Shown here: piece by piece, positions 1-18,859 of the stretch
How the letters are laid out: each line of letters begins with the position of its first letter
How positions within the stretch are numbered: position 1 is the stretch's first letter
NCBI RefSeq assembly: GCF_004010195.1
Contig: NC_057718.1
Span: 39,922,579-39,947,638 of the forward strand
Direction: 5' to 3'
DNA length: 25,060 bases
Source of the DNA: Chiloscyllium plagiosum
Taxonomy: Eukaryota
Translations under genes and position numbers: made by a program
The notes under the pieces: model-generated
Seen by the model: only the letters and a program-made list of their open reading frames with translations
The model's database searches: none
Told to the model about the DNA's origin: nothing

Positions 1-1915
1 TAATAGTCAGCACCCCACATCGGTACGGACCATATTAAATCAGAAAGCAGGACAATGGCTCACAGGCTCTAGGATCTTGAAATATGAGGCAATTTTAATA
101 GAGAAGGATGACCTTGTGTTAGTCACAGACAGTTGCTTAAATCCAGCTGCATTCCTGTGGCATGGAGACGGGGAGGCCCCTGGTAATCCAGAACACGACT
201 GCCTCGATATTATTGAATATCAGGCAAAAGTATGGATGGACTTAAGGGACATCTCGCTGCATGCGGGAGCTCAGTTGTTTATCGACGGGTCCTCCTGGAT
301 GATTGAGGGTAAAAGGCACAATGGATATGTAGTAGACGGGATAGAGGGAAGCGTTATTGAGGCTGAAAGACTGCCTAATGGCTGGTCAGCCCAAACTTGT
401 GAACTCCATGCCCTAGAAAGAGCTCTCAGAGCCTTAGAAAACAAGGAAGGAACGGTGTATACAGACTCCAAATATGCATTTGGAGTGGTAACACTTTCGG
501 AAAAATTTGGCAAGAAAGAGGACTAATAAATAGTCGAGGAAACAAACTAGCACATGAAGAATTGATAGAATGAATACTAGAATCCCTGTTACTCCCGAGG
601 GAAATAGCGATAGTTCATATAAATGGACATCAAAAGAGGAATTATCCGGAAGTAAGAGGAAATAGACTGGCCGATGAGGTAGCTAAAGAAGCGGCCCTGA
701 ATCTATAAGGAGCCACAATATACTCCATAATACCAGTAATTCCGGATCCTCAGGGTACCCCATTGTTTACTGCAAAGGAGGAAAAGGAACTAAAAGTCTT
801 AGGGGCAACAAAGACAGTGGTTGGGCACTGGATGTTACCCGATGGGAGAGAGATGTTGAATAAAATGATGATGCGAGAGATTATGGCTGTCCTATATCAG
901 GGGAGTCATTGGGGAGTGCAAGCAATGTGTGATTTAGTCTTAAGGAAATATGGATGCAAAGGGATATATACGATAGCCAAACAGATATGTGTGGGATGTA
1001 TAACATGCATGAAGGTAAACAAGAAGGTGCTAAGGAAACAAGTCCCAGGAGGGAGAGAGCCTGGGCTAAGACCATTCCAGAGCATCCAGGTAGATTATAC
1101 CGAATTACCCAGAGTGGGAAGACTGAGATATGTTGGTAATAGTTGATCATTTATCTGGATGGGCGGAGGCGTATCCTCTGGCCACTGCCACTGCAAGTGG
1201 GGTGTCCAAGATAATACTTGAACACATAGTTCCCAGATATGGGATAGTGGGGTGTATAAATTCGGATCAGGCAACTCACTTTACCTCCAGGGTACTCCAG
1301 GGAACGATGAAGGGGTTAGGGATCTCCTGGGAGTTCCACACCCCTTGGCACCCACCCTCATCAGGAAAGGTTGAGAGAATGAACCAGACACTCAAGAGGC
1401 AGTTATCTAAATTAATAATAGAAACCAGACTCCCTTGGACTAAGTGTTTACCTTTAGCCCTCTTGCGAGTGCGGACGGCCCCAAGGAAAGATTTGGGGCT
1501 GTCCCCTTATGAAATATTGTTTAGCTTGCCCTACTTGGGAACAAAAGGGGAACTGCCAATCCCAGAAACTAAAGATTTGTTCTTAAAGAAGTGTATACTG
1601 GGCTTGACCTCCTCTTTGTCTTTCCTCAGGAAACAGGGTTTATTGGCACAGACTCCGCCCCTTATATTCACCGTTCATCCCATCTGGTCGGGAGATTGGG
1701 TCCTGATTAAGTCATAGACAGAAACTAAATTGCAACTGGATTGGGAGGGACCATACCAGGATCTTTTGACTACCAAAACGGAGATAAGAACGGCGGAGAA
1801 AGGATGGACTCACTACACCAGGATTAAGGGACCAGTGGAATCCCTGGTTGAGAAAGAAGTCTGGACAAACGAATCAACGCAAGAACCACTGAAGCTCAGG
1901 CTAAAAAGACTTTAA
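1..1915 (+). pseudogene. pol: Retroviral pol 3' part (RT connection, RNase H, integrase), disrupted
   Basis: Connection VRTILNQKAGQWLTGSRILKYEAIL. RNase H motifs LFIDGSS, SAQTCELHAL, VYTDSKYAFG, IVHINGHQ, GNRLADEVAK. IN Zn finger Y(for H)QGSHWG...CITC (895-1008). Catalytic D 1093, D 1265, E 1373 give D(35)E spacing. C-terminal WEGPY. Frameshifts near 22, 491, 1129; in-frame stops at 571, 706, 1715; terminal TAA 1913-1915. Confidence 0.95.
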
Positions 1916-2006
1916 GTGACTGATTATACTGTGACGACGTGAGCACTGGATGTTTTTTTTAATAGATTGGATGTAAAGTCTCTCAGCGCTTCAATACTAC
2001 TGTAGA

Positions 2007-3746
2007 ATGCTGGGGATGCTTAGAGTTATGATATTAGCTCTCTTAGTATTGGGATTTTGTCAAACATCGTCTCCACACTTGTTATTAACGGTTCCTGAGT
2101 CTGATAATCCGCAAGTAATAGACGCCGATGCATGCAGCTTAGTAAATTGTGGGGATGTAGATAATCAGAGACAGTACCGCAGCTCAGAGATACATCTTAA
2201 GTCCTATGGGGATGGTACTTGGTATAATGGTCTTGTCACAGTACACCGGACCCCCTTCCGACCAACTCTCGATTATCCCGATAAAAAGTGTAACCCAATA
2301 TACCTAAAGATAAAGAAAACCACATGGCACGAAGCGATTCGGTGGGGGGAACACCTATCGGGTACAATTAAATGAAACATTTGGGATAGAAATGAAAACA
2401 AACAGGAAGGATTTCTCGGACTGTTGTTTTCAAATTAGCATAGGAATAGGAAAGGGAAAACGGGCCGAACAACTGGATATAAGATACAACCTTTCATCCC
2501 TGCCAATGACCCTAAGGTGGTAAAAATTATAGAGGTGAAGGGCTTGAAACAGACCATCAAAATAGAAACTGAATACGGGGATGCAAATGCCTGTGTAGAA
2601 TGGGTAAAGTATGCTGTATGAAGTCTGAATAAGAGCAATTGCTATGCATGTGCCTCCGGTAGACCAATGGTTCAAGTAGTCACCTTTCCGCTCGGGTGGA
2701 AGCAAAACAGGAGGGGCATGACATGCATGATAGCCCTGTATCAGGATGAAACTGCATGGAGTAATAAAAAGTGTATGCCCCTTCTATTAATGTTCCCTCC
2801 TTTAAAGAAGGAAGGTTTAAAGACGCCCCTCCATGTTTTCTGCCGTGGTCAGAAACCACACATCGTGTGTAAACAGGCGAGGAACAAATCGGTCCAGATA
2901 TTTGGGGGAACTGAAATCATGTACCGAAATTGAGTATGAGATGGAAAAGGGAGGAAACTACTCAGCACTGAAGGTTCCCCGAGCGGATCTGTGGTGGTAT
3001 TGGGAGGTAAAATATTGAGACCCACCCTACTTCCAGATTGGAGAGGGATTTGTGCAATTGTACAATTGACAATCCCATTCAACTTGGCATTTGAAAAGGA
3101 GAAGATAGCAATAAAAAGGGGGAGGAGTAAAAGATCATTATTAGACACTTCTTTTGATGATAGGATTTATCTAGACTCTATAGGAGTTCCTAGAGGGGTA
3201 TTGGATGAGTACAGATTGCAGCAGGTTTTGAATCGGCTCTATTCTGGTGGGTAACGTTCAACAAGAATGTGGACTGAATAAACTATATTTTCTAAAATCA
3301 GCAAAGATTCATCAATTACACTAAGGATGCAGTCAAAGGCATAGCAGAACAGCTTGATGCAACCAGTAGAATGGCCTGGGAAAGTAGAATGGCCTTAGAT
3401 ATGATCTTAGCTGAAGAAGGGGGTGTATGTATGATGTTAGGAGGGAGATGCTGTACTTTTATTCCAAATAATACAGCACCTGATGGGTCAATCACTCGTG
3501 CCTTGCGAGGATTGACCACCATGGCGGAAAACTGGCTGAGAATTCAGGGGTGGACACATCATCACGGGATGGCTGGAATCATGGTTTGGGAAATGGAAGG
3601 GAGTGGTAGTCTCCATCCTCACCTCCCTGATAGTGGTAGCAGGGGTACTGGTAGCAAATGGCTGTTGTATCATACCTTGTGTATGGGGACTAACCCAACG
3701 GCTGATTGAGACAGCCTTGGCAAAACAGATGCCCCTAAACGGGTAA
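2007..3746 (+). pseudogene. env: Gamma-type retroviral env, disrupted
   Basis: Signal peptide MLGMLRVMILALLVLGFC; SU CXXC motif CYAC (2640-2651); furin site RSKR (3123-3134); ISD-like ESRMALDMILAEEGGVC; CX6CC CMMLGGRCC (3428-3454); membrane anchor VVVSILTSLIVVAGVLVANGCCIIPCV (~3603-3685). Stops at 2619, 3275, 3293 and several frameshifts. 3' end uncertain; the tail may have run toward the PPT. Confidence 0.93.
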
Positions 3747-3885
3747 TCAGGCAGAGGAACTCTACCCCTTGAACAATGAGGGGATGAGTGACCTTGAGGC
3801 CAAGATGGACGAAGTCTTGGGGATGATGCTTGCAAATTTGGGGACGACATATGAGAGAAATGCAGAAAACAACAATTATTTTTTT

Positions 3886-3897
3886 AAAAAGGGGTAA
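3886..3897 (+). other. Polypurine tract (plus-strand primer), preceded by a T-run
   Basis: TTTTTTT-AAAAAGGGGTAA directly before the LTR-initial TG at 3898. Confidence 0.85.
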
Positions 3898-4261
3898 TGT
3901 GAGAGGCGCTTGCAAATGTTGTTGTTTCTGCAAAAATCACAAGGTTGAATCATGATGGGGGGGGATATATGTCAAGCTAGACATGCTTGCACAAACAGCT
4001 ACAAGTAGCTGCATCTTGCTTCTGCAGGAATCGCAAGGCGGAATCATGAGGGTGAATACCAAGAAATAACTAACCGAAATGGGAGGTAGTCGACTGGTAG
4101 AAATAGATATATTGACATGACAGTTGCAATTGTCACGCACTTAGGGAGTTAATATGAAAAAGATAACCAAATAAGACCCAGTGTTGTGTCAGCAAAAGTA
4201 ATAAGACTCAGCTATCAAGGGGGGGGCATGCTAACAACAGGCCACAGACAGATGTGGTAAG

Positions 4262-4315
4262 CCAATTAGATTAGCAGCTGCACAGAGCAATACAACTATC
4301 ACATATGAAGTATAA
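4262..4315 (+). promoter_or_regulatory. LTR U3 promoter candidates: CCAAT box (4262-4266) and TATAA (4311-4315)
   Basis: Motifs lie ~50 bp apart and ~100 bp upstream of the poly(A) signal, the usual LTR layout. Confidence 0.55.
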
Positions 4316-4414
4316 GGGGAGTACCGAGAGACTCAGCTGAACTGTATTAATTGTAATGTAACCTCCTGATCGGTGTGCCTACTTTGTGGTCACCCAGGCT
4401 TGCAAGAACGTATG

Positions 4415-4420
4415 AATAAA
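4415..4420 (+). terminator. LTR polyadenylation signal
   Basis: AATAAA about 60 bp before the LTR end. Confidence 0.7.
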
Positions 4421-4509
4421 GACTGCTTCAGAATTTGACTCAGACTGAAATTATTGAACAGTAAGCTTCGTTTCTCACAGGTAATATTTTCAAAGCAAAG
4501 ACAAACATA

Positions 4510-4715
4510 AATCTGGAAGTGCAGGAGGAACATATTTTAGAGACAGGGTATTGGCTCTGTGAACAGATTACAGGCATAGTGGTGGATCTAGAAACATTAA
4601 TAGTATTGAAGAAGGTACCAAACAGCTTCTTCTCAACAAAACAATTTGTTTTTATTATAACTGTGCCAATATAGTACAGTGACTGGATGAATCGAAGGTC
4701 TTCTCCTGCCTGAAA
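4510..4715 (+). mobile_element. Old, degraded CR1 LINE 3' end next to the ERV
   Basis: Resembles the CR1 ORF2 C-terminus and the 3'UTR motif (gactggatgaatcgaaggtcttctcctg), compared with clearer CR1 copies in this window. Confidence 0.5.
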
Positions 4716-5052
4716 CTAATACTTTGCTATTCAGGTTTCAGAGATGAATAAACAATGTTCACTCCATTGTATTATTTGCATCAAAACATTCTGAAAAATT
4801 CTGCCTTTGAAGTGAAGAATTAAATTATGCTTACCAAAATGGCTATTAAAGTTTGTCATAATTGAAATAATTGTGCAAAACTCGTCATGCCTTATCTTCA
4901 AACTTACCTGAGGTATGTTAATTTTCCCAAAGTATTGACACGAATGTTGTGAAATGAAACAGTATGCAGCCTTATTTATTCTAAGTTGTGAGTTGCATTA
5001 TGAATAAGAGAATTGAATCATTAATAGCCAAACCATGACTGACAATACAATG

Positions 5053-6159
5053 TCATGGGCACCCGCATGGGCCCCAGCTATGCCTGCCTCTTCGTTGGAT
5101 ATTTGGAACAGTCCATCTTCCGCAGCTACACTGGCACCACCCCCCACCTTTTCCTCCGCTACATCGATGACTGTATCGGCGCTACCTCGTGCTCCCATGA
5201 GGAGGTTGAACAGTTCATCCACTTTACTAACACCTTCCATCCCGACCTCAAATTTACCTGGACCATCTCAGACTCCTCCCTCCCCTTCCTAGACCTCTCC
5301 ATTTCTATCTCGGGCGACTNNNNNNNNNNNNNNNNNNNNNNNNNNNNNNNNNNNNNNNNNNNNNNNNNNNNNNNNNNNNNNNNNNNNNNNNNNNNNNNNN
5401 NNNNNNNNNNNNNNNNNNNNNNNNNNNNNNNNNNNNNNNNNNNNNNNNNNNNNNNNNNNNNNNNNNNNNNNNNNNNNNNNNNNNNNNNNNNNNNNNNNNN
5501 NNNNNNNNNNNNNNNNNNNNNNNNNNNNNNNNNNNNNNNNNNNNNNNNNNNNNNNNNNNNNNNNNNNNNNNNNNNNNNNNNNNNNNNNNNNNNNNNNNNN
5601 NNNNNNNNNNNNNNNNNNNNNNNNNNNNNNNNNNNNNNNNNNNNNNNNNNNNNNNNNNNNNNNNNNNNNNNNNNNNNNNNNNNNNNNNNNNNNNNNNNNN
5701 NNNNNNNNNNNNNNNNNNNNNNNNNNNNNNNNNNNNNNNNNNNNNNNNNNNNNNNNNNNNNNNNNNNNNNNNNNNNNNNNNNNNNNNNNNNNNNNNNNNN
5801 NNNNNNNNNNNNNNNNNNNNNNNNNNNNNNNNNNNNNNNNNNNNNNNNNNNNGGACTCAGCACCGCCTTCTTGACCTGCAATCATCTTCCCGACCTCTCC
5901 GCCCCCACCCCCTCTCCGACCTATCACCCTCACCTTAACCTACTTCCACCTATCGCTTTCCCAACACCCCTCCCCCAAGTCCCTCCTCTCTACCTTTTAT
6001 CTTAGCCTGCTTGGCACACCTTCCTCATTCTTGAAGAAGGGCTTATGCCCGAAACATTGGTTCTCCTGCTCTTTGGATGCTGCCTGACCTGCTGCACTTT
6101 TCCAGCAACACATTTTTCAGCTCTGATCTCCAGCATCTGCAGTCCTCACTTTCTCCTCC
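5053..6159 (+). mobile_element. 5'-truncated Penelope-like element with 14-bp TSD, spanning an assembly gap
   Basis: RT motifs MGTRMGPSYACLFVG, FLRYIDD (YIDD 5160-5171), LPFLDL; 3' terminus shared with other PLE copies; exact direct repeat CTGACAATACAATG at 5039-5052 and 6160-6173. Confidence 0.9.
5320..5852. other. Assembly gap (533 N); a second 10-N gap lies at 15492-15501
   Basis: Runs of N in the sequence. Confidence 1.
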
Positions 6160-7041
6160 CTGACAATACAATGAACCATTTAAGGAGACCATTCCTGTCA
6201 TTATATACTAATCCCCAAGGTCAAGTTGCAGACATTTCTCGGAGTAAGAAGTTGTCTAATTGAGTTTCTTGGCTTAAAATTAATATAAAAGTGAATGCTA
6301 CAAACATGAAATATTCAGAATTTTGAAACAATTCTATATTTAATGTTATGTCTTCACAATGTATTACTTTTGAACTTATAAACAATATATCCTTCCATAA
6401 ATGGAATGTTATAGTCCATTTGGCAGGTTTCCAGGCAAATCCATCTCTTGCTCCTGAATCCACAGCCCACAATCAGCACACAGCCCAATGTCAAATATGT
6501 AGACAATCTAAGGGTGGCCTACTCTATTCCAGTATCCACGAAACAACATCAGACTGACCTTCATATTTATACTAGAAACACAAGTTGTTGCAGCTGCTCT
6601 CAGTGTTCTGTATCACATTAGAAGTTCCACGCAGCATATAAGTTTCAAAGTTTTATCCATCAGTTTTTCTGATCATTGAGGTCTTTGCCAGAAATGTTGA
6701 TATAAATAAAAAGCTAAAGACAGGCAGTTTAAACATGTTAACTGTGTAGAAAAACCTTAGCAAGGGGAAGGTCATACTAATAATTTACTTTATTTATTAA
6801 CAGATGATCTATAAAAAGAATGATCATGTTCTGTATCATTCTGGGCACTTCTGATTGGATTCACAATCTTTTACGTGTAAAAGCAATCTCAACCAGCTCC
6901 CTTTTAGAAAGATTCTTTTTTTGATTTTGTTGTTTTCTTCACTATTAATTTTGGTTTTTAAGCACTGAGTCTGTGGACATTAGCTTAAAATGGGATATAT
7001 GGAATTGGCCCTCATCTTTAAGTAAATAATGCAATTAATTA

Positions 7042-7107
7042 AGATTAGATTCCCTACAGTATGGAAACAGGCCATTTGGCCCAACAAGTCCACACCGACC
7101 CTCCAAA
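7042..7107 (-). mobile_element. Short CR1/HE1-type 3' tail fragment
   Basis: Reverse complement ttgttgggccaaatggcctgtttccatactgtagggaatctaatct resembles the CR1 3' stem-loop plus short tandem tail at 9650-9703. Confidence 0.7.
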
Positions 7108-7955
7108 ATAACTTTTAAACCAAGTATTTAGAAATGTTCTGGCTTGTTTGTTTTGTATCTTCTCATATTTAGTTTGTCTACTGTGGAAGAGTAGGGAGCT
7201 GCACAAATTACCAGTTTGACTTTCTACCTGTTTTTAACTGTGTCATGAATACCCCTTCCTTCGCTGTCAGACCTTGGGCTGGAATCTGAACCTGAATTGT
7301 CTCAAAAGCCTCCTAATGTTCTGCTGAATGGCCAATGTCAAAAAAGAAAAGCTTCTCAGGCATTATAACATCAAGAATTTCTCCTGATAAGCATATGAAA
7401 GCACAGGAAGACATTGTCAAGAAAATAAAGTTGTGCCCCACGCAAGGAGAAAGTTCAAATATGAAATATATAGCTCAGCAGTGCACAAATATGAAACTGG
7501 AATGACAAATGTTTTACAAAAGAACAAGAAATCAAGAAGAGTGTTTACCTAACATTCAGAATGTTATACAAATAGAGGAAATCATCACTGTTTGGATGAA
7601 ATGCATTGGAGGCATGGAAGAGTTGAATTTGAGCTCTCTCATAAGTATCAGATTTATGCTACAAATTAAAACATATCTCACACTAATGTTAATGTTGCCT
7701 TCATTAAAATGTCTAGATGTTAAATGCAAGTACAATTAAAAATTTATTAACTGGTAACTATTGGCAAAGCTAAAACAGCTGATTTTTACCTTTTTGGTTA
7801 AGTGTGAGTTGTGTTGAATGCTTTTGAGGATTTTTCACAATGTGGCCGAGTGAACCTTCGCGCTTTGTTTTATTAAATGAGCCTAATTAATTACCTATGA
7901 TGACCCTATGCTGTCCTTCAAGTCGGATTCCAGACTCATCTTACCTGTGAACTGA

Positions 7956-8088
7956 CATTCCTGATGAAGTGCTTATGCCCGGAACGTCGCTTCTCCTGTT
8001 CCTCTGATGCTGCCTGACCTGCTGTGATTTTCCAGCACTACACTTTTTGACTCTGATCTCCAGCATCTGCAATCCTCACTTTCTCCTA
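7956..8088 (+). mobile_element. Solo PLE terminal repeat (pLTR) starting with a degenerate hammerhead motif
   Basis: Closely similar to 6026-6157; ATTC-CTGATGA-AGTGCTTATGCCC-GGAA-CGTC at 7957-7988. Confidence 0.85.
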
Positions 8089-8089
8089 G

Positions 8090-8283
8090 AGGAAAGTTGG
8101 TGTCCTGCTTTGCAGACAGGGTCATGGAGATGCAGCTGGATGGGGCAGTTCAGAGGCAGGCCACAACAACAGATCATACCAACCTAGCTGAGGTTTTCAC
8201 CTGGGTTAAAGTAGTCTCAGTCGTCTGGACGAATTGCCCAGTTCTGTTCGGAACAAAGACAATGACCTATTCCACTCTGCCAG
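8090..8283 (+). pseudogene. Degraded Myb/SANT-like DNA-binding ORF, probably from a Harbinger/PIF transposon
   Basis: Across frames: CFADRVMEMQLDGAVQR ... AEVFTWVKVVSVV ... RNKDNDLFHSA, matching the F..E..LL / W.EVA..V / RKK.NDL pattern of MSANTD/Harbinger Myb domains. Confidence 0.4.
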
Positions 8284-8718
8284 CATAAGTGTGTCACCTT
8301 CTCTCTGATAGCTACACTCACTCTATCTCTGCCTTTGTACACACCACCTACCAAGTTGCATGCTGTCCCAATCTCACTATTTTCTGCACCATTTTACCCC
8401 ACTCACTGTCACCAACCTGACCCTTGTCAACATTAACTCTGCATATCTCCTGTGCTGCCTACTGACTCACTTGTGTCACTTCCCCATCTGTATAAGCTGT
8501 GCCACCCACTTTCATCTCCTGTGATACCCAGTCATCTCTCATTCAAGGAGGAAAACAGCTACCAGTAGAGGAGAAAGAATCAAGACGGGTGGTGGGCTGC
8601 CTAAAATTTGGCTCCTCACCCCCTTATGTGAACACTGTCTCAACTCTGACCATCTATAGAGGCTGACTGACTGTCTCTAAGCCCCTGAACTACAGTCAGA
8701 GGCTGGCCTTGACTTACT

Positions 8719-9703
8719 GTGCCAGGGGGTCCTCTACTTTTTGTCATTTATATAAATGATTTGGATGTGAGCATAAGAGGTATAGTTAGTAAGTTTGCAG
8801 ATGACACAAAAATTGGAGGTATAGTGGACAGTGAAGAAGGTTACCTCAGGTTACAACAGGATCTTGATCAGATGGGCCAATGGGCTGAGAAGTGGCTGAT
8901 GGAGTTTAATTCAGATAAATGCGAGGTGCTGCATTTTGGGAAAGTAAATCTTAGCAGGACTTATTCACTTAATGATAAGGTCCTAGGGAGTATTGCTGAA
9001 CAAAGAGATCTTGAAGTGCAGGTTCATACCTCCTTGAAAGTGGAATCGCAGGTAGATAGGATAGTGAAGAAGGCGTTTGGTATGCTTTCCTTTATTGGTC
9101 AGAGTATTGAGTACAGGAGTTGGGAGATCATGTTGTGGCTGTACAGGACATTGGTTAGGCAACTTTTGGAATACTGCCTGCAATTCTGGTCTCCTTCCTC
9201 TCGGAAGGATGTTGTGAAACTTGAAAGGGTTCAGAAAAGATTCACAAAGATGTTGCCAGGGTTGCAGGATTTGAGCTATAGGGAGAGGCTGAATAGGCTG
9301 AGGCTGTTTTCCCTGGAGTGTCGGAGGCTGAGGGGTGACCTTATAGAGGTTTACAAAATTATGAGGGGTATGGATAAATAGACAGAATCTTTTCCCTGAG
9401 GTCAGGGAGTCCAGAACTAGAGGGCATAGTTTTAATGTGAGTGGGGAAAGATAAAGAAGAGACCTAAGGGGCAACGTTTTCACACAGAGGGTGGTACGTG
9501 TATGGAATGAGATGGTAGAGGAAGTGGTGGAGGCTGGTACAATTGCAACATTTGGATGGGTATATGAATAGGAAGGGTTTGGAGAGAAATGGGCTGGGTG
9601 CTGGCAGGTGGGACTAGATTGGGTTGGGATATCTGGTCGGCATGGACATGTTGGACCGAAGGGTCTGTTTCCATGCTGTACATTTCTATGACTCTACGAC
9701 TCT
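8719..9703 (+). mobile_element. 5'-truncated CR1 LINE (HER1-like), relatively young
   Basis: Open 220-aa frame with GPLLFVIYINDLD, KFADD (FADD 8794-8805), FNSDKCEVLHFG, LERVQKRFTK; frameshift near 9375; 3'UTR stem-loop ggaccgaagggtct and tail ctatgactctacgactct. Confidence 0.95.
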
Positions 9704-9805
9704 TTGAGTGAAAACTATCCCCTTGACTGAGGCCTGTTGAAGACCAGGACAAGCTTCTTGCCTTTGTGTCTGCATTAAACAGCGTGGCAAAACTGGCTTA
9801 ATATG

Positions 9806-10172
9806 AAACAAAAGCAGAAGTTGCTGGTGAAATTCAGCAGGTCTGACAGCATCTGTGGGGAGAAAGCAGAGTTAATGTTTCAAGTCCCCTGCTGACTCTG
9901 GGGGAGCAAGAAGTCCTGCCTCTGAACCACCCCATCCAGTTGCATCCCCATGACCCTGCCTGCACCAATTTTCCTTTGTCTACCAATTCAAGGCAAATAT
10001 CAGGAACGATGCAGGGAAGCTGGTGGTGTGGGCTCAAGGGATGTTGGTCTTCATCAGAATTTACAGTCACCAGACTCGAAACATTAACTTCACTTCTCTC
10101 CATACCTGCTGAGGTTTGCCAGCATTTCCTGTTTTTGTTTCAGACCTCCAGCATCTGCAGTTCTTTGTTTTC
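9806..10172. mobile_element. Fold-back PLE terminus (inverted pLTR arms) with ~160 bp of unrelated sequence inside
   Basis: 9806-9886 is the imperfect reverse complement of 10073-10140; hammerhead halves tcttcatcagaa (10048-10059, minus) and agtcaccagactcgaaacattaac (plus) lie at the junction. Confidence 0.7.
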
Positions 10173-10821
10173 TTTTCAATGTATTATGAGAGTGGTATCT
10201 CTGGGTGAACAGGCAAAAAGCAAGGCAATGCAAGGCAGGGATGCTGGGGTCATCCAGGTAGGCCCAGGGTGAATGTGCACTATGACAGTGAGCAAAGAGC
10301 CCAGAGATACAGCTCACCCCGTCAATGAGCTGGATGTGTGTCCTTGAACAGACAGTGTCCTGCCAGCAGGATTACAATGTTAATTGCTGGTGCAGCACAA
10401 AGTGCAGCACTGAAGTGCTGAAGCATCCTGTAAGTGGATCAGAGATGTACCATGAGGTTTTGTGTCAGATGCCAATGCCCAGGGATGTGGGGTGCACGTG
10501 ACTGGTGCCCATAGAGGCTTTGGTTCTCAGTGTCTAACGTGAGGGTGGCTCAGAGCAAGCAGCGAGCTCACTTCACTGGGTACCCACTCTGATTCCCATG
10601 ACAAGATTCCTCAACGTCTTGCTTGTTTTGAGCATTTGCTCAGACAGGAAGTTGAATATTAATGAGGCATGTTGGCCTGTCAGCATGGCATTTAACAAAC
10701 TACAGTCTCCCTGAAGTGAAACTTGCCGCTGCTTAAGAAAAAACTCATCAAACTGCTTGTCAAAAGCAAGAATGATGGTATGGGATGCTCCTGATGATGA
10801 CTTCTCACAATACATATGCCA

Positions 10822-11147
10822 TGTCATAGGATTCTTACAATGTGGAAGCAGGCCATTCAGCCCTTTGAGCTCACACAGATTCTCTGAAGAGCATCCCACC
10901 CCTACCATATAACTCTGCATTGCCCATGGCTAATCCACCTAACCTATACATCCCTGGACACTGCAGGACAATTTAGCACAGCCAATCCACCTATCTTTAG
11001 ACTGTCAGAGGAAAACAGAGCACCTGGAGAAACCCATGCAGGCATGGGGAGAATGTGCAAATGCCACATGGTTAGCTGAGGCTGGAATTGAACCCAGATC
11101 TCCAGTACTGTGGGGCAGCAGGGCTAATTATTGAGCTACCATGTTGC
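10822..11147 (-). mobile_element. tRNA-derived V-SINE (HE1-like)
   Basis: Minus strand: A-box-like tggtagctcaataattagc, B box GGTTCAATTCC (11084-11094), V-domain-like tttgcacattctccccatgcctgcatgggtttctcc, CR1-type 3' tail. Confidence 0.85.
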
Positions 11148-11752
11148 TCAAGCCCCCTAAAAGACTCTTCCCAATATATTATTTTGAAAGAGCAAAAATA
11201 TTCTAGAAATTATTAGTGCTGTGCAATTGTAAATGTTGGTTACATTTGCACTCAATGGACACCATATGGAATCCATCCAGCTCAGTGTATGTTTTGCTTA
11301 TCTTGGTTGTTTTTTCTACAAATGCAGCTGATTCTTCAATACACTTGGCAGGAGGTACACCGCTACACTCTGCAGTAACCTATAATTCCAAACTTTTATT
11401 TTCTACCTTTATCAACAATTGAGATAACATTTCACTCTCAGCATTTACTTTATATTAATAATTATTTACTTTTATTTGTTAAATTCTCATATTTAATATC
11501 TTTTAATAGTAGGGGCATAGCCACGTATTCCGATCCTGTGTTTGAAAGCTGCAGAGACAGCAGGAATTCTGCTTTATTATGATGCCTGCAATTCCTTGTT
11601 GTATATTTATATACTGTGGAAATGGAATTAAGTTTAAAAGTCTTCCAAAAATGTTTCAATGAAGGTGCTAAACAGTGGTAAGTGAAATTCACAACTGAGT
11701 GGAAAACTAGTTTGACCAGTCAGCCTGGCATCATTTGTAACAGCACTAAAAG

Positions 11753-11937
11753 GGAGATCGTGAGAACTGCTGATGCTGGAGAGTCAGAATCGATAAAGGG
11801 TGATGCTGGAAAAAACACAGCAGGTCAGACAGCATCTGAGGAACAAGACATTTGACGTAATATGCCCAAAACTTCAACTGTCTTGCTCCTCAGCTGCTGC
11901 CTGACCTGCTGTGCTTTATCCAGAGCCACACTTTATC
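11753..11937. mobile_element. Short fold-back PLE-derived insertion with ~14-bp TSD
   Basis: Arms 11792-11850 and 11879-11937 are imperfect inverted repeats of the PLE terminus; flanked by AACAGCACTAAAAG (11739-11752) and AACAACACTAAAAG (11938-11951). Confidence 0.85.
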
Positions 11938-12046
11938 AACAACACTAAAAGAATTAGTTTAAACTATGATTTGGAGATGCTGGTGTTGGACTGGGGTTAC
12001 AAAGTTAAAAATCACACAACATCAGTCCAACAGATTTAATTGGAAG

Positions 12047-12081
12047 CACTAGCTTTCGGAGTGCTGCTCCTTCATCAGGTG
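12047..12081 (-). ncRNA. Minimal type I hammerhead ribozyme motif, core intact
   Basis: Minus strand CAC-CUGAUGA-A-GGAG(CAGCA)CUCC-GAAA-GC-UA-GUG: stem I CAC/GUG, stem II GGAG/CUCC, loopless palindromic stem III (AGCU), CUA triplet. Confidence 0.75.
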
Positions 12082-12554
12082 GTTGTGGAGTACACAATTG
12101 TAAGACACAGAATTTATAGCAAAAGACACTCACAACCCCCTCACCCCAGACACACACACACATGCACACACATGCACACATACAAATATACATTTGTGGA
12201 TTGAATTTGTACTTGCAGAGAAACAATGTACTTTGCTCAAAAACTACATGAATCCATGTACGACACTGTTAACTAATTTTTTAGATTAAAATCAGTCTAA
12301 ACATTATGGCACAGACAACAGCACACAGGGGGCTAACACCTTCAACACATTATCTGGGCTAACACTAATTGTCACAGTTAACTTTTTAAAAAGTTTTGTG
12401 ATTTACATATGAAAGAAGTGAAACTATCATGGCCATTCTAACAGATGAGAGACTTAATAAACAATCAAGGTATTTTTCAATGTATAATTTCAGTTACATC
12501 ACACTGTAAACTTTTGCTATAAATTCTGTGTCTTGCAATTGTGTACTCCATAAC

Positions 12555-12589
12555 CACCTGATGAAGGAGCAGCGCTCCGAGAGCTAGTG
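12555..12589 (+). ncRNA. Minimal type I hammerhead ribozyme motif with one core substitution
   Basis: CAC-CUGAUGA-A-GGAGC(AGC)GCUCC-GAGA-GC-UA-GUG; conserved GAAA is GAGA (12579-12582). Confidence 0.65.
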
Positions 12590-13500
12590 CTTCCAATTAA
12601 ACCTATTGGACTATAACCTGGTGTTGTATGATTTTTAACCTAGTTTAAACTAACTCACTAATTACCTTGAAAATGTATATTTTGTGATTTTTAGAAATTA
12701 ACATGAAATGTACCACTGGTCATATCAGGAAATAGAAGGGAGAGAGGAACTCTGAAAAGTTGCAGTCACCAGGGAGGTGGTACTGAGTAACTTGTTGGAG
12801 CTGAGGACTTAGAAGTGCTGCAGTTCTGGTGGACTTTATCCTCAGGTCTTAAATTATGTTTTTACTGGGATAGCTAATGCACCAATTTTAACTTTCCAAA
12901 ATTCCCTCAATTCTGCAGATGGTCTATTAGAATGGAAAATGGCAAATGTAATTCAAAAAGGGAGGGAGACAGTTAGCAGGTAACCCCAAGCTAGTTAGCT
13001 AATGCCTGTTATAGGGAAATGTTCAAAGCTATTAGTAAAAATATAATGGGACACTCAGACAGTTCACGGTAATTAGATAGAGTCAATTTGGTTTTCTAAA
13101 AAGAGAAAGCACGTATAACCAATTTATTGTAGTTCCTTGAGGAAGTATTATTCAAAGTATAAAGTGCAACCAGTGGGTGTATTGTAATTAGATTTCCAGA
13201 TAGCATTTGATAAGGTGCCATATCAAAGGTATTGCAGAAAATAAAAGCTCATAGTACAGGGATAACAGATTGGCATTGATAGAAGGTTGACTAGCTAACA
13301 AGAAACAAAAGTTAATATAAATGGTTCATTTTCTGGTGGGCAAGACATAACAATTGGGGTACCACAGATATCAGTGCTGGGTCATCTTAAAGAAATGAGC
13401 TAGATGAAGGGAATAAAGGTATGGTTGCTGCACTTGCTGATGACAACAACATAGATAGGAAATAAGAGAAGAGAAGCTAAAGGGATATTGATTATTATTG

Positions 13501-14140
13501 ACTTCCAAGATGCCGGCGGCAGGGATTGGCAGCATTTGGCTCCTGAGAGTGGGGCCCAGCTGTTCTTGGCTCATGCAGTGGATTCTGCTGCATCTGCATG
13601 GCTTCATTGTTGTCATTCTAGCTCAATAACTGTTTCTTTTGTTTGGGTTTCCTGAGGCCTCCTCCTAATGTCGGACCCCATCTACCACCATCCCTGCTCT
13701 GTCTCGGGTGGTGGTTTTGGAAGATGAACCAGGACCCCATCGATCAACTTGGAGCCAGGACCCGTCAGTTGATGTCTGGCATTGGAGGAAGTGCGGGACA
13801 CGCACACAGTGTGACCATCTCCAGCTTGGAGGTGGTGCAAGTGATGATGCTGGTGGCAGCTACAATGGAGCCCTTTGCCAGTACTCCAGGTTTGATGTTG
13901 GATGGTAGTGACTGGAGGAACAGTTAGGGTGAAGTCAACAGAGAGAGAAAGATGAACTTTTGCAGCTGTTTCAATTTTAGTAATATTGATTTAATATCAG
14001 TTTATTCAGTATTTTACCATTTATACAATTTATTCAGTGATTTATTCTGTAATCCAAGATGGCATTGGAATGTGGCGACATTATTCACTTTTCACTGCAG
14101 CTAGGTACAAGTGATAATATATTAAATAAATCTACTAAAC
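13501..14140 (+). mobile_element. ~640-bp non-coding retroposon-like insert (non-autonomous LINE derivative?)
   Basis: Interrupts the CR1; starts CTTCCAAGATGCCGGCGGC (YY1-like) and ends cacttttcactgcagctaggtacaagtgataat...aataaatctactaaac, resembling Rex1/L2-type 3' ends. Confidence 0.55.
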
Positions 14141-14629
14141 AACTTGAGTGGGCAAAGAGCTGGCAAAGGGAAAATAATGTTGGAAAATTGGTGAGATTGC
14201 AAAGCTCTGAGATGTCGAGTGATCTCAAAAGGTTAGTTTTCAAGTACAGCAAGATATTAGAAAAGCTAATACAATGTTATTCTTTATTTTGAGGGGAACT
14301 GAGTATAAAAGTAACAAGCATTGTATGAGAAATTGTCTGGAGCACTGTACACAATATTAGTCTTTTTATTTAACAAAGGATGTAAATGAGTTGGAAGAAA
14401 GCAGTTCAAAGAAAGTTTACTAGGATAGCAGCTAAACTATATGAATTGTCTTATGAGAAAGGGTTGGACAGACTAAGTTTGTACCCACTGGTGATATGAA
14501 AAATAAGAGACAATTTGGTTGAATCTGGAATGATTTTAACAGGACAGATGAGGAAAGGATGTTTTCTGCGGTGGAAGAATTGAGCACCAAGTGAATGAAG
14601 CTGGCCATTTTGTGGCCCTCTTGTGACAA

Positions 14630-16345
14630 ACTGAACTAATTTCTACCTACCTCGATGCTGTCCTATCCCCCCAGTCCAGTAAGTCCCCACATATGTTCGA
14701 GACACCACCCATGCCCTCCATCTCCTCCAAGACTTCCGTTCCCCCAACACCTAATCTTCACCATGGATATCCGATCCCTCTACACCTCCATCCGTCATGA
14801 CCAGGGCCTCCAAGCCCTCCGTTTCTTCCTCTCCCAACGTCCCCAACAGTACCCTTCCACCGACACTCTCATTTGTTTGGCCGAACTGGCCCTCACCCTT
14901 AACAATTTCTCCTTCAAATCCTCCCACTTCCTCCAGACCAAAGGGCACCCGTATGGGCCCCAGCTATGCCTGTCTCTTTGTTGGCTACGTAAAACGGTTG
15001 ATCTTCCATAATTACACCGGCACCACTCCCCACCTCTTCCTCCACTACATTGATGACTGGCGCCACCTCGTGCTCCCACGAGGAGGTTGAACAATTCATC
15101 AACTTCACCAATACATTCCACCCTGACCTTAAATTTACCTGGACCATCTCTGACACCTCCCTCCCCTTCCTGGACATCTCCATCTCCATTAATGACGACC
15201 GACTTGACACCGACATGTTTTACAAACCCACCGACTCCCACAGCTACCTGGATTACACCTCTTCCCACCCTACCTCTTACAAAAATGCCATCCTCCATTC
15301 CCAATTCCTCCGCCTCCACCGTATCTGCTCCCAGGAGGACCAGTTCCACCACAGAACACACCAGATGGCTTCCTTTTTTAGAGATAGCAATTTCCCTTCC
15401 CACGTGGTTGAAGATGCCCTTCAACACATCTCGTCCACATCCCGCACCTCCACCCTCAGACCCCACCCCCTCCAACCGTAACAAGGACAGANNNNNNNNN
15501 NTCCCTCCCCACCCCTTTCCGCCTTCCACAAAGACTGTTCCCTTCATGACTACCTGGTCAGGACCACGCCTCCCAACAACCCACCCTCCCGGCTTGGCAC
15601 CTTCCCCTGCCAACGCAGGAATTACAAAACCTGCGCCCACACCTCCTCCCTCACCTCCATCCAAGGCCCCAAAAGAGCCTTCCACATCTACCAAAGTTTT
15701 ACCTGCACATCCACCAATCTCATTTATTGTATCCGTTGCTCCCGATGCGGTCTCCTCTACATTGGGTAGACTGGACACGTCCTAGCAGAGCACTTTAGGG
15801 AACATCTCTGGGACACCCGCACCAATCAACCACACCGCCCTGTGGCCCAACATTTCAACTTCCCCTCCCACTCAGCCGAGGACATGGAGGTCCTGGGCCT
15901 CCTTCACCGCCGCTCCCTCACCACCCGACGTCTGGAGGAATTACGCCTCATCTTCTGCCTCGGAACACTTCAACCCCAGGGCATCAATGTGGACTTCACC
16001 AGTTTCCTCATTTCCCTTTCCCCCACCTCACCCCAGCTCCAAACTTCCAGCTCAGCACTGTCCCCATGACTTGTCTTACCTGCCTATCTTACCTCCGCCC
16101 TGACCTATCACCTTCATCCCCTTCCCCACTCACCTATTGTACTCTATGCTACTTTCTCACCACCCCCACCCTCCTCTCATTTATCTTTCCACCCTTCAGG
16201 CACTCTGCCTGTATTCCTGATGAAGGGCTTTTACCCAAAATGTCAATTTTCCTGCTCCTCGGATGCTGCCTTGAACTTCTGTGCTTTTCCAGCACCACTC
16301 TAATCTAGACCCTGGTTTCCAGCATCTGCAGTCATTGTTTTTACA
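14630..16345 (+). mobile_element. 5'-truncated Penelope-like element (probably Neptune-like), RT plus GIY-YIG endonuclease, disrupted
   Basis: FTMDIRSLYTSI, MGPSYACLFVG, YIDD (15046-15057), FYKPTDSHSYLDY; Cys-rich linker GTFPCQRRNYKTC; NLIYCIRCSRCGLLYIG* (15716-15769); C-terminal GTLQPQGIN; 3' pLTR ending gtcattgtttttac. Confidence 0.93.
16213..16248 (+). ncRNA. Degenerate hammerhead motif in PLE pLTR (another degenerate copy at 6027-6060)
   Basis: ATTC-CTGATGA-AGGGC(TTTT)ACCC-AAAA-TGTC-AATT; GAAA mutated to AAAA, consistent with CpG decay. Confidence 0.55.
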
Positions 16346-16445
16346 TAGTAGTAGTGTCCTTACCCCTGGGCAAAGTGGCCTAGGTTCAAATCCCACCTCC
16401 TTCTGAGGTCTGTAATAACATCTCTGAACCGGCTGATGAGAAAAG
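16346..16445 (+). mobile_element. tRNA-derived short element; its 5' tip probably lies at ~14614-14629, separated by the PLE
   Basis: agtagtagtgtcctta...GGTTCAAATCC (B box)...gaggtctgtaataacatctctgaaccggctgat matches the reverse complement of the array units at 20312-20925, whose 5' ends read gggctcttgtgg (compare ggccctcttgtga at 14614). Confidence 0.75.
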
Positions 16446-16810
16446 TAGCTTAAGCGAAAAAAGGAATCGAAAACCAGGTGTCCCTATTTATACAGGTTAA
16501 AAGTAAGTGGTTACCCATTTAAGATAGAGATCAGGAGAATTTCTTTCAACAGAGCATTGTGAGTCTTTGGAACTTGTTTCCTCAAAATGTGGTGGAGGCA
16601 GAGTTGTTGAATGTTTTTGTGGCAGAGGTTTGATAGATAATTGATAAAAAAGGGTGTGAAAAGCTATCATGGGTTAACAGAAATGTGAAGAAAACGTGAT
16701 CTTATTAAATGGCGGAGTAGGCTCGTGGAACTGAGTGTCCCACCCCGCTCCTAATTTGTATGCTGTAATGTACGAGACATTTACGGCTAAATGAGACTTC
16801 CTAAAGACTA

Positions 16811-17125
16811 AACAAAAAAACTGGAAGAACTATGGATGCTGGAAATCAGAAAAAAAACAAAAACTGAAAATGCTGGAAAACTCAGCAGGCCTGCCAGCAC
16901 CTGATGCAGAGGAATCAGAGTTAATGTTTCAGGTCCAGTGACCCTTCTTCAGAACTGACGATAGTTAGGAAAAGGATTATATTAATGCAGAAGATGGGGT
17001 GGGGGAGGGGGGAGACTAAACAATAGGTGGAGATAGAGCCCAAAGAGAGGGCAAACCTTTGACAGACAAAGGAGTGGTTAAAGGCCAACCTAGGGGAATG
17101 AATAGCTGCTAATGGGGCTATTTAC
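16811..17125 (-). mobile_element. PLE 3' terminus (further subfamily) with hammerhead motif at 16920-16955
   Basis: Minus strand GUU-CUGAAGA-A-GGGUC(ACUG)GACCU-GAAA-CA-UU-AAC followed by the pLTR block gcaggcctgctgagttttccagca...tttccagcatcc. Confidence 0.8.
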
Positions 17126-17869
17126 CTCTGTGTCCAAAGAACAAATTTAGACTTTTGATTTTGTCCCTGCTGTAGTGGTAAACCTGGACAGAAAATCTGT
17201 GAAGAAGAACAGTTTTGCAAGGTTAGAGAGGTTATTCAATTCACAGTTTTCAGGATATATTTCCAGGAAGAAACTGATGCAACGTGGTGAAATTGCTTTT
17301 AAAAATATATTTTCTTGCTACAAACATGCCTTGTTAAGCAGTTTCATTTCGTGCTTGAAGCAGATATGCCAGAATTGCCAATGGCTTCAATCATGTGCAG
17401 CTTCTGTAACAAAATAATATTATTTTCAGTAACTTATCACTATAAGATATTTAAATAGAAGTACTTATTTGATTCAAATTACCATGCTTGACTGTATTCT
17501 GGGTGAAACCTGATGAAACATGGCTAACTGAGTGTGATAGTGAGCTTGTTTCCTGCATGGCATATGTTATGAATTGCATTAAGTGTTCATGTTACTTCAA
17601 CTGTTTTAATAAACTACTTTGTATATTTTTGATAATTCTGTCCAGAATTATGTTTAAACTTTACATTGAGGTGTGCAATGTTCCCTGGATGAGCAAATAA
17701 TGCTAAGTACCTGATCAGTAGTGCAGACAGGAAAATTAAGGACTCCTTTCTTTTATGTCAAGGGAAAAAGTGACTTTAAAACGTATAATTTCTGGGAATA
17801 TCAATTTGTTCACAGACCATCAATTAACTGTAGGGGGAGAACATAGCAATCTACAATAAAAAAAACTAT

Positions 17870-17955
17870 ACTAGAGAAAACTATTCAAGTCTGGCAGCAT
17901 CTGTGAAGAGAGGAAACAGTTGGCATTTCAAATCAAATGTGCCTGTTCTTCAGAT
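17870..17955 (-). mobile_element. Degraded solo PLE terminus
   Basis: gtctggcagcatctgtgaagagaggaaacagttggcatttc...ttcttcaga resembles 9840-9886 and 16885-16955. Confidence 0.6.
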
Positions 17956-17977
17956 CTTTTGGATAAAAAGGCATCAG

Positions 17978-18557
17978 AGAACCAATGTCCTTTAGGGAAG
18001 GAAATCTGCTGTCCTTACTCAGTCTGACTAACATGTGTTTTCAATTCACAGCAATGTGGTTCACTCTAGACTGCCTTATGTAGTATGTCATTCAGTTGTA
18101 TCAAATCACAAAGTATGTCTTAGAATGAAACAACACTGACTCAGCTTTGATTGAAGCGTTAGATTTAGATATGAAAAAGACAAACACAAGCCATTTGACG
18201 TTGCAACATGCTCCTGCTAACATCTGGAGACTTAAACCAAAGTTGGAAGAGCTATTCCACAGGTTAATCAAGCAAGGCCTTGACATAGCCACACTCACAG
18301 AATCATAACTATTACTCAATGTCCAGATAACGCTGGTATATGAAAAAATAGGATTAAAATAGTTTGATGTGTGTTTTTGAGTGACACGATAGGCCAAAGG
18401 GCTTTTTCTGTGCTGTAGACCTCTGTGTCTCTAGTCCTCGACTTAAGGCAGGACAAATTCATCATGGTCATGGCAAATTGGTTTACAGTCAGAAGGTAGT
18501 TACCCTGGATGTCCTCAACAATAACTTTGGACATCATGAAGTTTCAATTACATCAAC
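17978..18557 (+). mobile_element. 5' part of a LINE: Deu-domain-like leader followed by APE endonuclease N-terminus, interrupted at ~18340-18433
   Basis: aatgtcctttagggaaggaaatctgctgtcctta...cacagcaatgtggtt resembles the DeuSINE/SacSINE-type body; then ANIWRLKPKLEELFHRLIKQGLDIATLTES (APE N...DI..LTE motif). Confidence 0.65.
18340..18433 (+). mobile_element. Short CR1 3'UTR fragment
   Basis: gacacgataggccaaagggctttttctgtgctgtagacctctgtgtctcta, a CR1-type stem-loop and tail. Confidence 0.6.
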
Positions 18558-18608
18558 CACACTGCAGGAGCAATTGGCAGTGAACAGTTAAACTCACTGC
18601 TGCTCAAC

Positions 18609-18738
18609 TAAAAGCAAATACCGCAGATGCTGGAAATCTGAAACAAATGTAGAAAATGCTGGAAAGATTCAGCAGGTCTAGTAGCATTGGCAGAGAGGAA
18701 AACAGAGTTAACGTTTCGTATGACTCTTGTTCCAAAAC
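18609..18738 (-). mobile_element. Solo PLE terminus
   Basis: gcagatgctggaaatctgaaac...cagcaggtct...agagttaacgtttcg matches the other pLTRs and ends in a decayed hammerhead. Confidence 0.75.
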
Positions 18739-18759
18739 TTCTTGTTTGCATTACTGCTA

Positions 18760-18859
18760 GTGCTGGCAAATGGAACTAGATTAGGTTGGAATATCTGGTC
18801 GGCATGGACGAGTTGGACCGAAGGGTCTGTTTCCATGCTGTACATCTCTATGACTCTAT
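18760..18859 (+). mobile_element. CR1 3' end, same family as 8719-9703
   Basis: Closely matches 9598-9697 (atatctggtcggcatggac...ggaccgaagggtctgtttccatgctgtaca...ctatgactcta). Confidence 0.9.

What the first reader, a model, noticed from the sequence alone, without database searches (positions are those of the whole stretch)
1..4479. HERV-I/HERV-IP-like provirus with reconstructable env and complete LTR in an apparent shark genome
Seen: full pol-env-PPT-LTR order. Recalled similarity: peptides such as ILNQKAGQWLTGSRILKYEAIL, NGWSAQTCEL, LNKSNCYACASGRP..VTFPLGW, PRADLWWY, IYLDSIGVPRGV and CCTFIPNNTAPDGSITRAL match my memory of the primate HERV-I/HERV-IP(ADP) group in both pol and env, even in the normally fast-evolving SU. 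HERV-I-related pol fragments are known from non-mammalian vertebrates, so the lineage is not new. Inference: an env-to-LTR copy from a chondrichthyan could inform on deep conservation versus long-range cross-species transfer.
Basis: partly seen in the sequence, partly recalled or inferred. Interest (0 to 1): 0.7.

Follow-up and report, generated by a model that had tools for sequence, protein, structure and literature searches.

The report
Shark provirus related to human HERV-IP/ADP
This is the decayed back half of an old retrovirus in a shark genome; it belongs to the same lineage as the human HERV-IP/ADP elements and the human EnvP(b)1 gene, and its envelope is closest to shark and bird copies, which points to a jump between sharks and land vertebrates rather than inheritance from their common ancestor.

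Summary
Confirmed: 1-4479 is the dead 3' half of a class I provirus: RNase H, integrase, gamma-type env, polypurine tract and a 582-bp LTR. It is a multi-copy family; the LTR-flank junction is bridged in two organisms' runs and consistent in a third. The nearest env is a Chiloscyllium punctatum ORF. Env trees put the window with sharks, sister to birds, inside a supported clade holding primate EnvP(b)1. An SU piece hits only the EnvP(b)1 receptor-binding domain in the PDB. A close relative's RT is about 79% identical to the HERVADP consensus (counted by eye). Shark-bird env distances (0.45-0.57) are below the largest shark-shark ones (0.64-0.77), and a tetrapod-only clade is rejected (AU p=0.007), favouring cross-class transfer; direction is unresolved. 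A human-ERV-like lemon-shark fragment and Chiloscyllium gamma-type-Env ERVs are already published, so this is a new member of a known kind. It does conflict with two printed statements (gamma clade amniote-only; no EnvP(b)1 relatives outside primates). This scan held no look-alike by sequence.

The parts
1..705 (+). pol: end of connection/tether region and RNase H (broken)
   Evidence: Pfam RNase_H E 1.3e-10 on 2-523, E 0.0012 on 574-702; 76% to P0102 over 168 aa
706..1915 (+). pol: integrase (H2C2 zinc finger, D,D(35)E core, C-terminal domain), broken
   Evidence: Pfam Integrase_H2C2, rve, weak MLVIN_C; 80% to P0102, 61% to C. punctatum P0005, 49-54% to the seven passerine/raptor rows of the main bird clade that align over 233 or more residues
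2007..2470 (+). [quoted passage not shown]
   Evidence: 1977-2372 hits 6W5Y at E 4.4e-7, the only significant PDB hit; 82% to P0069, 40% or less over full length to other envs; model of P0069 residues 28-155 matches 6W5Y at Z 10.5, rmsd 2.6 A, 116 aligned
2471..3135 (+). env: C-terminal half of SU with CXXC motif and furin site RSKR (broken)
   Evidence: motifs; piece 2472-2828 is 74% to P0069, 52-61% to full-length bird rows, 53-55% to EnvP(b)1 orthologues, 29-37% to frog and fish rows
3136..3885 (+). env: TM with fusion peptide, ISD, CX6CC, membrane anchor and tail (broken; 3' end approximate)
   Evidence: TLV_coat E 7.7e-4; syncytin-2/-1 TM E about 1e-6; tblastn with P0069
3886..3897 (+). 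polypurine tract, preceded by a T-run
   Evidence: sequence
3898..4479 (+). 3' LTR, 582 bp: TG...CA, 7-bp terminal inverted repeat, 37-bp U3 direct repeat (3922-3958/4016-4052, 81%), CCAAT 4262, TATAA 4311, AATAAA 4415
   Evidence: depth drop and single-copy contigs ending inside the LTR terminus
4480..4483 (+). candidate 3' copy of the target-site duplication (GGTA); 5' partner outside the window, untested
   Evidence: inference from the LTR end; a 4-bp TSD for gamma-like elements is recalled
4480..5040 (.). single-copy host flank joined to the LTR end
   Evidence: contigs spanning 4433-5040 in organism A (0 differences) and B (20), and 4451-5040 in C (19, 1 gap)

Best explanation
A defective germ-line provirus of a simple gamma-like (class I) retrovirus of the HERVIPADP / avian gamma-1 lineage, fixed in a shark (probably a bamboo/carpet shark) before the split of at least two, probably three, related species. 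SHOWN: pol-env-PPT-LTR anatomy, loss of coding capacity, multi-copy family, shared junction, env clade membership. [quoted passage not shown] INFERRED history: the lineage crossed between tetrapods (birds nearest among rows sampled) and elasmobranchs at least once, long after the hosts parted, then diversified among sharks and rays; some families still have open env or near-identical pol copies. This locus encodes nothing functional.
For: Anatomy. Multi-copy and shared junction. Env tree, 50 rows, LG+G4: both window pieces sit with C. punctatum P0069/P0071 (90/85) in an elasmobranch group (84/91) sister to birds (85/95), inside a 100/99 clade with EnvP(b)1, bilby and caecilian rows, frogs and fishes outside. 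Mixture model, 22 rows: sharks 93/95, sharks+birds 81/84, ingroup 95/96. Path from P0069 to 4 of 4 birds 0.45-0.57, to the 5 other shark rows 0.36-0.77, with 3 of 5 above every bird value. AU test rejects the 12 tetrapod rows as one clade, p 0.007. P0315 is an EnvP(b)1 orthologue (6W5Y E 3e-99) and is 48% identical to P0069 over 93%. RT of P0102 vs HERVADP consensus about 198 of 249 (by eye), vs 61-67% for six bird rows and 50% for Columba. Han 2015 reports a lemon-shark ERV close to a human ERV, thought to be cross-transmitted.
Against: The sharks+birds branch is unstarred in both trees (85/95, 81/84) and open in the 34-row tree. The AU group was named after the first tree had been seen. No reptile env was in the set, although Xu's tree lists snakes, turtles and crocodile beside HERVADP. 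In the integrase tree the order is reversed: elasmobranch rows are paraphyletic around passerines (90/94), with an unsure root, so direction is open. The window lacks RT; the HERVADP comparison is by eye and through an unnamed relative. No HERVIP/HERVADP protein was in any tree. The host was not tested against a repeat library.
Confidence: 0.72

Rival explanations
1. Same element, but elasmobranchs (or other aquatic hosts) are the older reservoir: the lineage took its env from the fish/amphibian gamma-type Env pool and passed from water to birds, reptiles and mammals.
For: The env clade's nearest outside relatives are all frog and fish envs, with TM 66-76% identical to P0069. In the integrase tree elasmobranch and unnamed close rows branch first and passerines nest inside. 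At least two distinct env families coexist in C. punctatum (path 0.77).
Against: In all three env trees mammal and caecilian rows branch before sharks+birds. Xu 2018 found only amniote tips in this clade with 3 cartilaginous genomes screened.
Confidence: 0.15
2. Deep conservation: the lineage was in the jawed-vertebrate ancestor and co-diverged with its hosts.
For: Wide host range (sharks, rays, caecilian, birds, marsupial, primates); sharks and birds each form one group in the env trees; TM evolves slowly across this env family.
Against: Tetrapod rows as one clade rejected (p 0.007); shark-bird paths shorter than shark-mammal (1.03-1.53) and than 3 of 5 shark-shark paths; no teleost member inside the clade among the rows sampled.
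Confidence: 0.06
3. Mosaic: only env is HERVIPADP-like and pol belongs to another class I group (env swap).
For: Chen et al. report frequent Pol/Env incongruence in anamniote ERVs. The window's best named env is C. punctatum while its best pol hits are unnamed and C. punctatum pol is only 61%.
Against: The nearest pol relative has RT about 79% like HERVADP (by eye); named pol hits are elasmobranchs and birds, as for env.
Confidence: 0.06
4. Contamination or mis-assembly of mammalian or bird DNA.
For: Resemblance to human and bird ERVs.
Against: Junction bridged in runs of two organisms from different studies; family at high depth in three; closest env is a shark gene model at 74-89% per piece.
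Confidence: 0.01

Closest known systems
HERVIPADP supergroup (HERVIP/HERVIP10F-LTR10F, HERVADP/HERVP71A-LTR71) and EnvP(b)1/ERVPb1; Vargiu 2016 PMC4724089, McCarthy 2020 PMC7683403
   Same: Env clade membership, shared C-terminal SU motifs, same predicted receptor-binding fold, A-rich pol/env (0.32/0.31), relative's RT about 79% to the HERVADP consensus (by eye).
   Different: Shark host; receptor-binding domain only 23-24% identical; LTR and PBS relationship untested; EnvP(b)1 is a co-opted single-copy gene whereas this locus is dead.
Lemon shark (Negaprion brevirostris) ERV of Herniou et al. 1998, known here only through Han 2015 PMC4422223; HERV-I-related vertebrate viruses of Martin et al. 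1997 (recalled, not read)
   Same: Shark ERV close to a human ERV, read as cross-transmission; very likely the same lineage.
   Different: That record is recalled as a short pro-pol PCR fragment; no direct comparison was possible as the window has no RT. This adds env, PPT and LTR.
Avian gamma-1 / ChiRV1 ERVs (Bolisetty 2012 PMC3482500; Xu 2018 S2 Fig) and bird env gene models (Phasianus, Lagopus, Meleagris, Anser, Larus, Melopsittacus)
   Same: Sister group in the env trees; TM 77-88% and C-terminal SU 66-71% to P0069; passerine integrases in the same 100/99 clade.
   Different: Receptor-binding domain about 25% identical; none of my bird rows is labelled ChiRV1/avigamma1, so that link rests on the papers.
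Chiloscyllium ERVs with gamma-type Env of Chen et al., bioRxiv 10.1101/2021.11.23.469661
   Same: Same genus as the nearest named env; LTR-bearing; 46 orthologous insertion groups reported; gamma-related Pol clades recognised among anamniote ERVs.
   Different: The main text never names HERV (0 hits); whether this family is among their lineages could not be seen, as the supplements were not available.

Membership tests
Class I (gamma-like) provirus | pol (RNase H, integrase) - env - PPT - LTR order with TG...CA ends | tested here: met
Class I (gamma-like) provirus | Gamma-type Env: SU CXXC, furin site, ISD, CX6CC | tested here: met
   syncytin TM hits
Class I (gamma-like) provirus | 5' LTR, PBS, gag-pro-RT, target-site duplication | not testable with these tools
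   upstream of base 1; no genome held
HERVIPADP lineage | Env clusters with ERVPb1/HERVIP Env | tested here: met
   100/99 clade with three EnvP(b)1 orthologues; 95/96 under the mixture model; motifs in HERVIP and HERVADP consensus envs
HERVIPADP lineage | Pol/RT clusters with HERVIP/HERVADP | tested here: inconclusive
   No RT in the window and no HERV reference in the tree. Indirect: relative P0102 (76-80% to the window) is about 79% identical to HERVADP RT by eye against 61-67% to six bird rows. Six RNase H/integrase motifs gave 0 hits in the supplement, whose long runs appear cut.
HERVIPADP lineage | [quoted passage not shown] | tested here: met
   window piece vs 6W5Y E 4.4e-7 by sequence; P0069 model Foldseek E 4e-7, VIA Z 10.5, next 6.0; the folding alignment contained three EnvP(b)1 orthologues
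HERVIPADP lineage | A frequency above 31% (Vargiu 2016) | tested here: inconclusive
   pol 0.32, env 0.314, but the adjacent flank is 0.35 and the rest 0.29
HERVIPADP lineage | PBS type and LTR similarity to LTR10F/LTR71 | not testable with these tools
   PBS outside the window; no Dfam/Repbase library
HERVI in Vargiu's sense (supergroup HERVERI) | Env/Pol like HERVE, HERV3, HERVI | tested here: inconclusive
   The env motifs were found only under HERVIP and HERVADP in the stored text, but that text is cut; Xu's tree lists a tip 'HERVI' beside HERVADP, so the name is used in two ways.
Epsilon-like fish ERVs (clade Mu) | Pol nearest to fish/amphibian epsilon-like elements | tested here: inconclusive
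   No teleost among the named rows of 68 integrase hits; named rows are elasmobranchs, birds, one lizard, one frog; no epsilon reference was in the tree.

The most novel reading that the evidence does not exclude
Sharks, skates and rays carry a broad and partly recently active radiation of HERVIPADP/avian-gamma-1 retroviruses with EnvP(b)1-type envelopes, produced by a transfer between birds (or unsampled reptiles) and elasmobranchs; this overturns the printed views that the gamma clade is amniote-only and that EnvP(b)1 has no relatives outside primates, and has not been described at the level of env.
Probability: 0.45. Interest if true: 0.62.

Novelty: new member of a known kind. Interest (0 to 1): 0.4.

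Why it matters
The locus is an ordinary dead provirus; the value lies in the family. Xu 2018 states that the gamma clade 'exclusively infects amniotes' and McCarthy 2020 that EnvP(b)1-related sequences are absent from avian, piscine and other genomes (they may have meant close relatives). Env gene models in four shark genera and several birds are 47-48% (shark P0069) identical to EnvP(b)1 orthologues over more than 90% of the length and share the receptor-binding fold. That gives an orphan human fusogen a comparative family, turns a 1998 single-fragment observation into a dateable question, and offers a case of retroviral transfer across the land-sea and warm/cold-blooded divide.

Tried and rejected
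No whole genome is held, so no 5' LTR, PBS, TSD or LTR-pair date. Rfam: 0 matches in the window. No second LTR copy in the window. Pfam found nothing on the four SU pieces. The bacterial promoter scan is not relevant to a vertebrate LTR and was disregarded. The PDB integrase search returned foamy virus, lentivirus, Ty3 and similar chains and does not help classification. The representative search (218 hits at E<=0.001, 150 listed, unnamed) served only to pick 10 clusters for naming. Atlas feature search on the P0069 receptor-binding domain gave generic Env clusters at 0.90-0.91, a lead only. Six pol motifs gave 0 hits in Vargiu's file 3, and 5 of 6 motifs 0 hits; the stored runs appear cut, so these are not absences. 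No RNA holder was listed for the stretch. The break count failed on a BLAST option and was redone. The journal version of Chen et al. is not held. PMC12679747, PMC9974502, PMC10435555, PMC9323773 and PMC9967133 (passages) had nothing on this family in sharks. TM identity was rejected as a marker of the lineage. Rows dropped: env trees used 48, 34 and 22 database proteins chosen from about 280 env hits (named or longest first); the integrase tree used 33 database proteins, 32 of the 68 hits plus cluster member P0102.
Full report
OBSERVATION. The first 4479 bases hold the 3' half of a provirus on the + strand. Pfam marks RNase H (2-523, E 1.3e-10), the integrase zinc finger (709-1143, E 2.3e-6), the integrase core (1127-1714, E 3.4e-8), a weak MLV-type integrase C-terminal domain and a weak TLV_coat match in TM; 6 of 11 pieces matched. 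Env runs from about 2007 to about 3885 and keeps the gamma-type motifs CXXC, RSKR, ISD and CX6CC. A polypurine tract (3886-3897) precedes a 582-bp LTR (3898-4479) with a 7-bp terminal inverted repeat and single CCAAT, TATAA and AATAAA signals in the expected order. Sliding intact natural relatives along the three frames shows 2 frame switches and 3 stops in pol, 8 switches and 3 stops in the env segments counted: the copy is dead. No genome is held, so gag, RT, PBS, 5' LTR and TSD were not seen.

COPY NUMBER AND JUNCTION. Three DNA runs from three coded organisms and one RNA run were laid on 1-5040 at 88% likeness (4 of 24 listed runs). Summed depth is 472-19,648, 996-30,942 and 1,753-37,981 over 1-4536 and 5.7, 15-18 and 38-43 beyond; the tool warns this is no copy number, but the step marks a repeated element ending at the LTR. 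Single contigs run from inside the LTR into the flank: 4433-5040 with 0 differences (organism A; possibly not independent of the window) and 20 differences (B); 4451-5040 with 19 differences and a gap (C; only 29 bases on the LTR side, short of the tool's 31-base bridging rule). The insertion therefore predates the A-B split, with about 3% flank divergence. Of 12.96 million RNA reads 78 were laid, none at 99% or more: other copies, not this one.

HOST. The best named integrase hits are Chiloscyllium punctatum, Leucoraja and Narcine, then birds (68 hits). The best env hit is a 626-aa C. punctatum ORF, P0069, 82% identical even in the receptor-binding piece where all other envs are 40% or less over full length. 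A bamboo/carpet shark is the likely host; unchecked notes on this genome say the same. The flank repeats could not be tested against a repeat library.

LINEAGE. The N-terminal SU piece has one significant PDB hit, the EnvP(b)1 receptor-binding domain 6W5Y (E 4.4e-7). P0069 finds 455 proteins (120 listed): sharks of four genera, galliform birds, gull and geese, three primate envs of 664-666 aa (47-48% over 91-93%), a bilby env, then frogs and fishes. P0315 is an EnvP(b)1 orthologue. Vargiu 2016 (passages) clusters ERVPB1 with HERVIP Env and notes similarity of HERVIPADP to avian ChiRV1; in its consensus file (motif searches; long runs cut) PFPLGW occurs twice, in the HERVIP and HERVADP envs, and IGVPRGVP once, in HERVADP. 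An AlphaFold model of natural P0069 (pLDDT 66 overall, mostly 70-88 in residues 21-160; alignment included EnvP(b)1 orthologues) matches 6W5Y best (Foldseek E 4e-7; Z 10.5, rmsd 2.6 A over 116; next Z 6.0). For pol, the window has no RT, but unnamed P0102 (76% and 80% to the window's RNase H and integrase pieces) has an RT stretch that I count by eye at about 198 of 249 identical to the HERVADP consensus shown, against 61-67% for six bird rows. This is indirect and was not computed.

WHICH PARTS ARE CONSERVED. P0069 by region: receptor-binding domain 23-27% to primates and birds; C-terminal SU 66-71% to full-length birds, 56% to EnvP(b)1, 35-43% to frogs and fishes; TM 77-88% to birds, 74-75% to EnvP(b)1, 66-76% to frogs and fishes. 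The discriminating signal is the C-terminal half of SU, not TM and not the receptor-binding domain.

HISTORY. With window pieces entered as separate single-frame rows, both fall with C. punctatum P0069/P0071, in an elasmobranch group sister to birds (85/95), inside a 100/99 clade with EnvP(b)1, Plecturocebus, bilby and caecilian rows. The 34-row tree leaves sharks and birds in an open fork, and its AU test rejects the 12 tetrapod rows as one clade (p 0.007; group named after the first tree). The mixture-model tree gives sharks 93/95 and sharks+birds 81/84; paths from P0069 are 0.45-0.57 to birds, 0.36-0.77 to other sharks, 1.03-1.53 to mammals and caecilian, 1.61-1.95 to the outgroup. Co-divergence from the gnathostome ancestor does not predict birds nearer to a shark than that shark's own second family. 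Against a simple bird-to-shark story: support for the sister pair is moderate, reptiles are unsampled although Xu's S2 Fig lists snake, turtle and crocodile tips beside HERVADP, and in the integrase tree elasmobranch rows surround the passerines with an unsure root. Transfer is favoured; donor and direction are not shown.

MECHANISM. Shown: anatomy, decay, multiplicity, clade. Inferred from established gammaretrovirus biology: receptor binding by the Ig-like domain, furin cleavage, disulfide-linked SU-TM fusion, PPT-primed plus strand, DDE integration, LTR-driven transcription; spread in the germ line by reinfection is suggested by open env ORFs in relatives (four 626-aa C. punctatum ORFs at 93.8-98.9%).

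WHAT IS KNOWN. Han 2015 (whole text) cites a lemon-shark ERV close to a human ERV, thought cross-transmitted (Herniou 1998, not read; Martin 1997, recalled). A review notes HERV-I-related chicken sequences (passage). Chen et al. (preprint passages and one section; supplements not seen, and they may already list this family) found gamma-type-Env ERVs in 6 cartilaginous fishes and 46 orthologous groups in Chiloscyllium, without naming HERV. Xu 2018 (parts 1-3 of 5 and S2 Fig text) says clade Jin infects only amniotes, and no chondrichthyan tip appears in that part of the tip list. McCarthy 2020 (passages and part 2 of 6) reports no EnvP(b)1-related sequences in avian, piscine or other genomes. 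Bolisetty 2012 and the 2025 bird survey (passages) do not mention sharks in this context. Nine searches of the open library found no paper linking shark env to HERVIP/ADP or EnvP(b)1; subscription journals are mostly missing. This scan's notes hold no look-alike by sequence and, by words, only a primate HERVIP provirus.

VERDICT. Real element (about 0.99); HERVIPADP lineage (about 0.88); cross-class transfer rather than co-divergence (about 0.85, direction open). New member of a known kind. Interest 0.40: the locus is ordinary and the lineage was glimpsed in sharks in 1998, but the env-level link to EnvP(b)1 and birds appears undescribed in what I could read and conflicts with two printed statements.

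Noticed in passing
P0134 cluster: A 399-400 aa env ORF of this lineage, lacking most of TM, is kept at 90% or more identity in budgerigar, golden parakeet and kakapo (shorter records in Amazona): a possible co-opted secreted Env of parrots.
   Followed up: no
P0008 cluster, Leucoraja erinacea: Six 882-aa pol gene models on several chromosomes are 99.5-99.9% identical, suggesting very recent activity of a related family in little skate.
   Followed up: partly
P0069 cluster, C. punctatum: Four of 12 members are 626-aa env ORFs, 93.8-98.9% identical; Heterodontus has a 22-member env cluster; C. punctatum also has three 404-aa env models of a second family.
   Followed up: partly
window 2017-2352, run X22: 78 of 12.96 million poly(A) single-cell reads were laid, none at 99% or more identity, mostly over the 5' part of env: other copies of the family appear transcribed; nothing shows this locus is.
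   Followed up: partly
env hits in frogs and teleosts: A large frog/fish env family has TM 66-76% identical to the shark TM, as close as EnvP(b)1; the HERVIPADP env seems to derive from or be sister to this aquatic pool.
   Followed up: partly
window 8713-9381 (-): LINE reverse-transcriptase fragment (RVT_1 E 1.3e-7), CR1-like by recall; a 99-bp repeat at 9598-9696/18760-18858 resembles an elasmobranch LINE/SINE tail (recalled, untested).
   Followed up: partly
window 5043-5318 and 14640-15480 (+): Two related RT-like fragments (83-87% DNA identity), no Pfam hit; Penelope-like by recall.
   Followed up: no
window 24503-24824: Exact 161-bp tandem duplication, possibly an assembly artefact; a Thr/Pro-rich open frame runs from 24682 to the window end.
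   Followed up: no
window 12024-12612 and 11792-11937: Inverted repeats of 102 nt (94%, 385 nt apart) and 67 nt (84%, 12 nt apart), MITE-like or head-to-head repeat tails.
   Followed up: no
window 5320-5852, 15492-15501: Assembly gaps of N.
   Followed up: no
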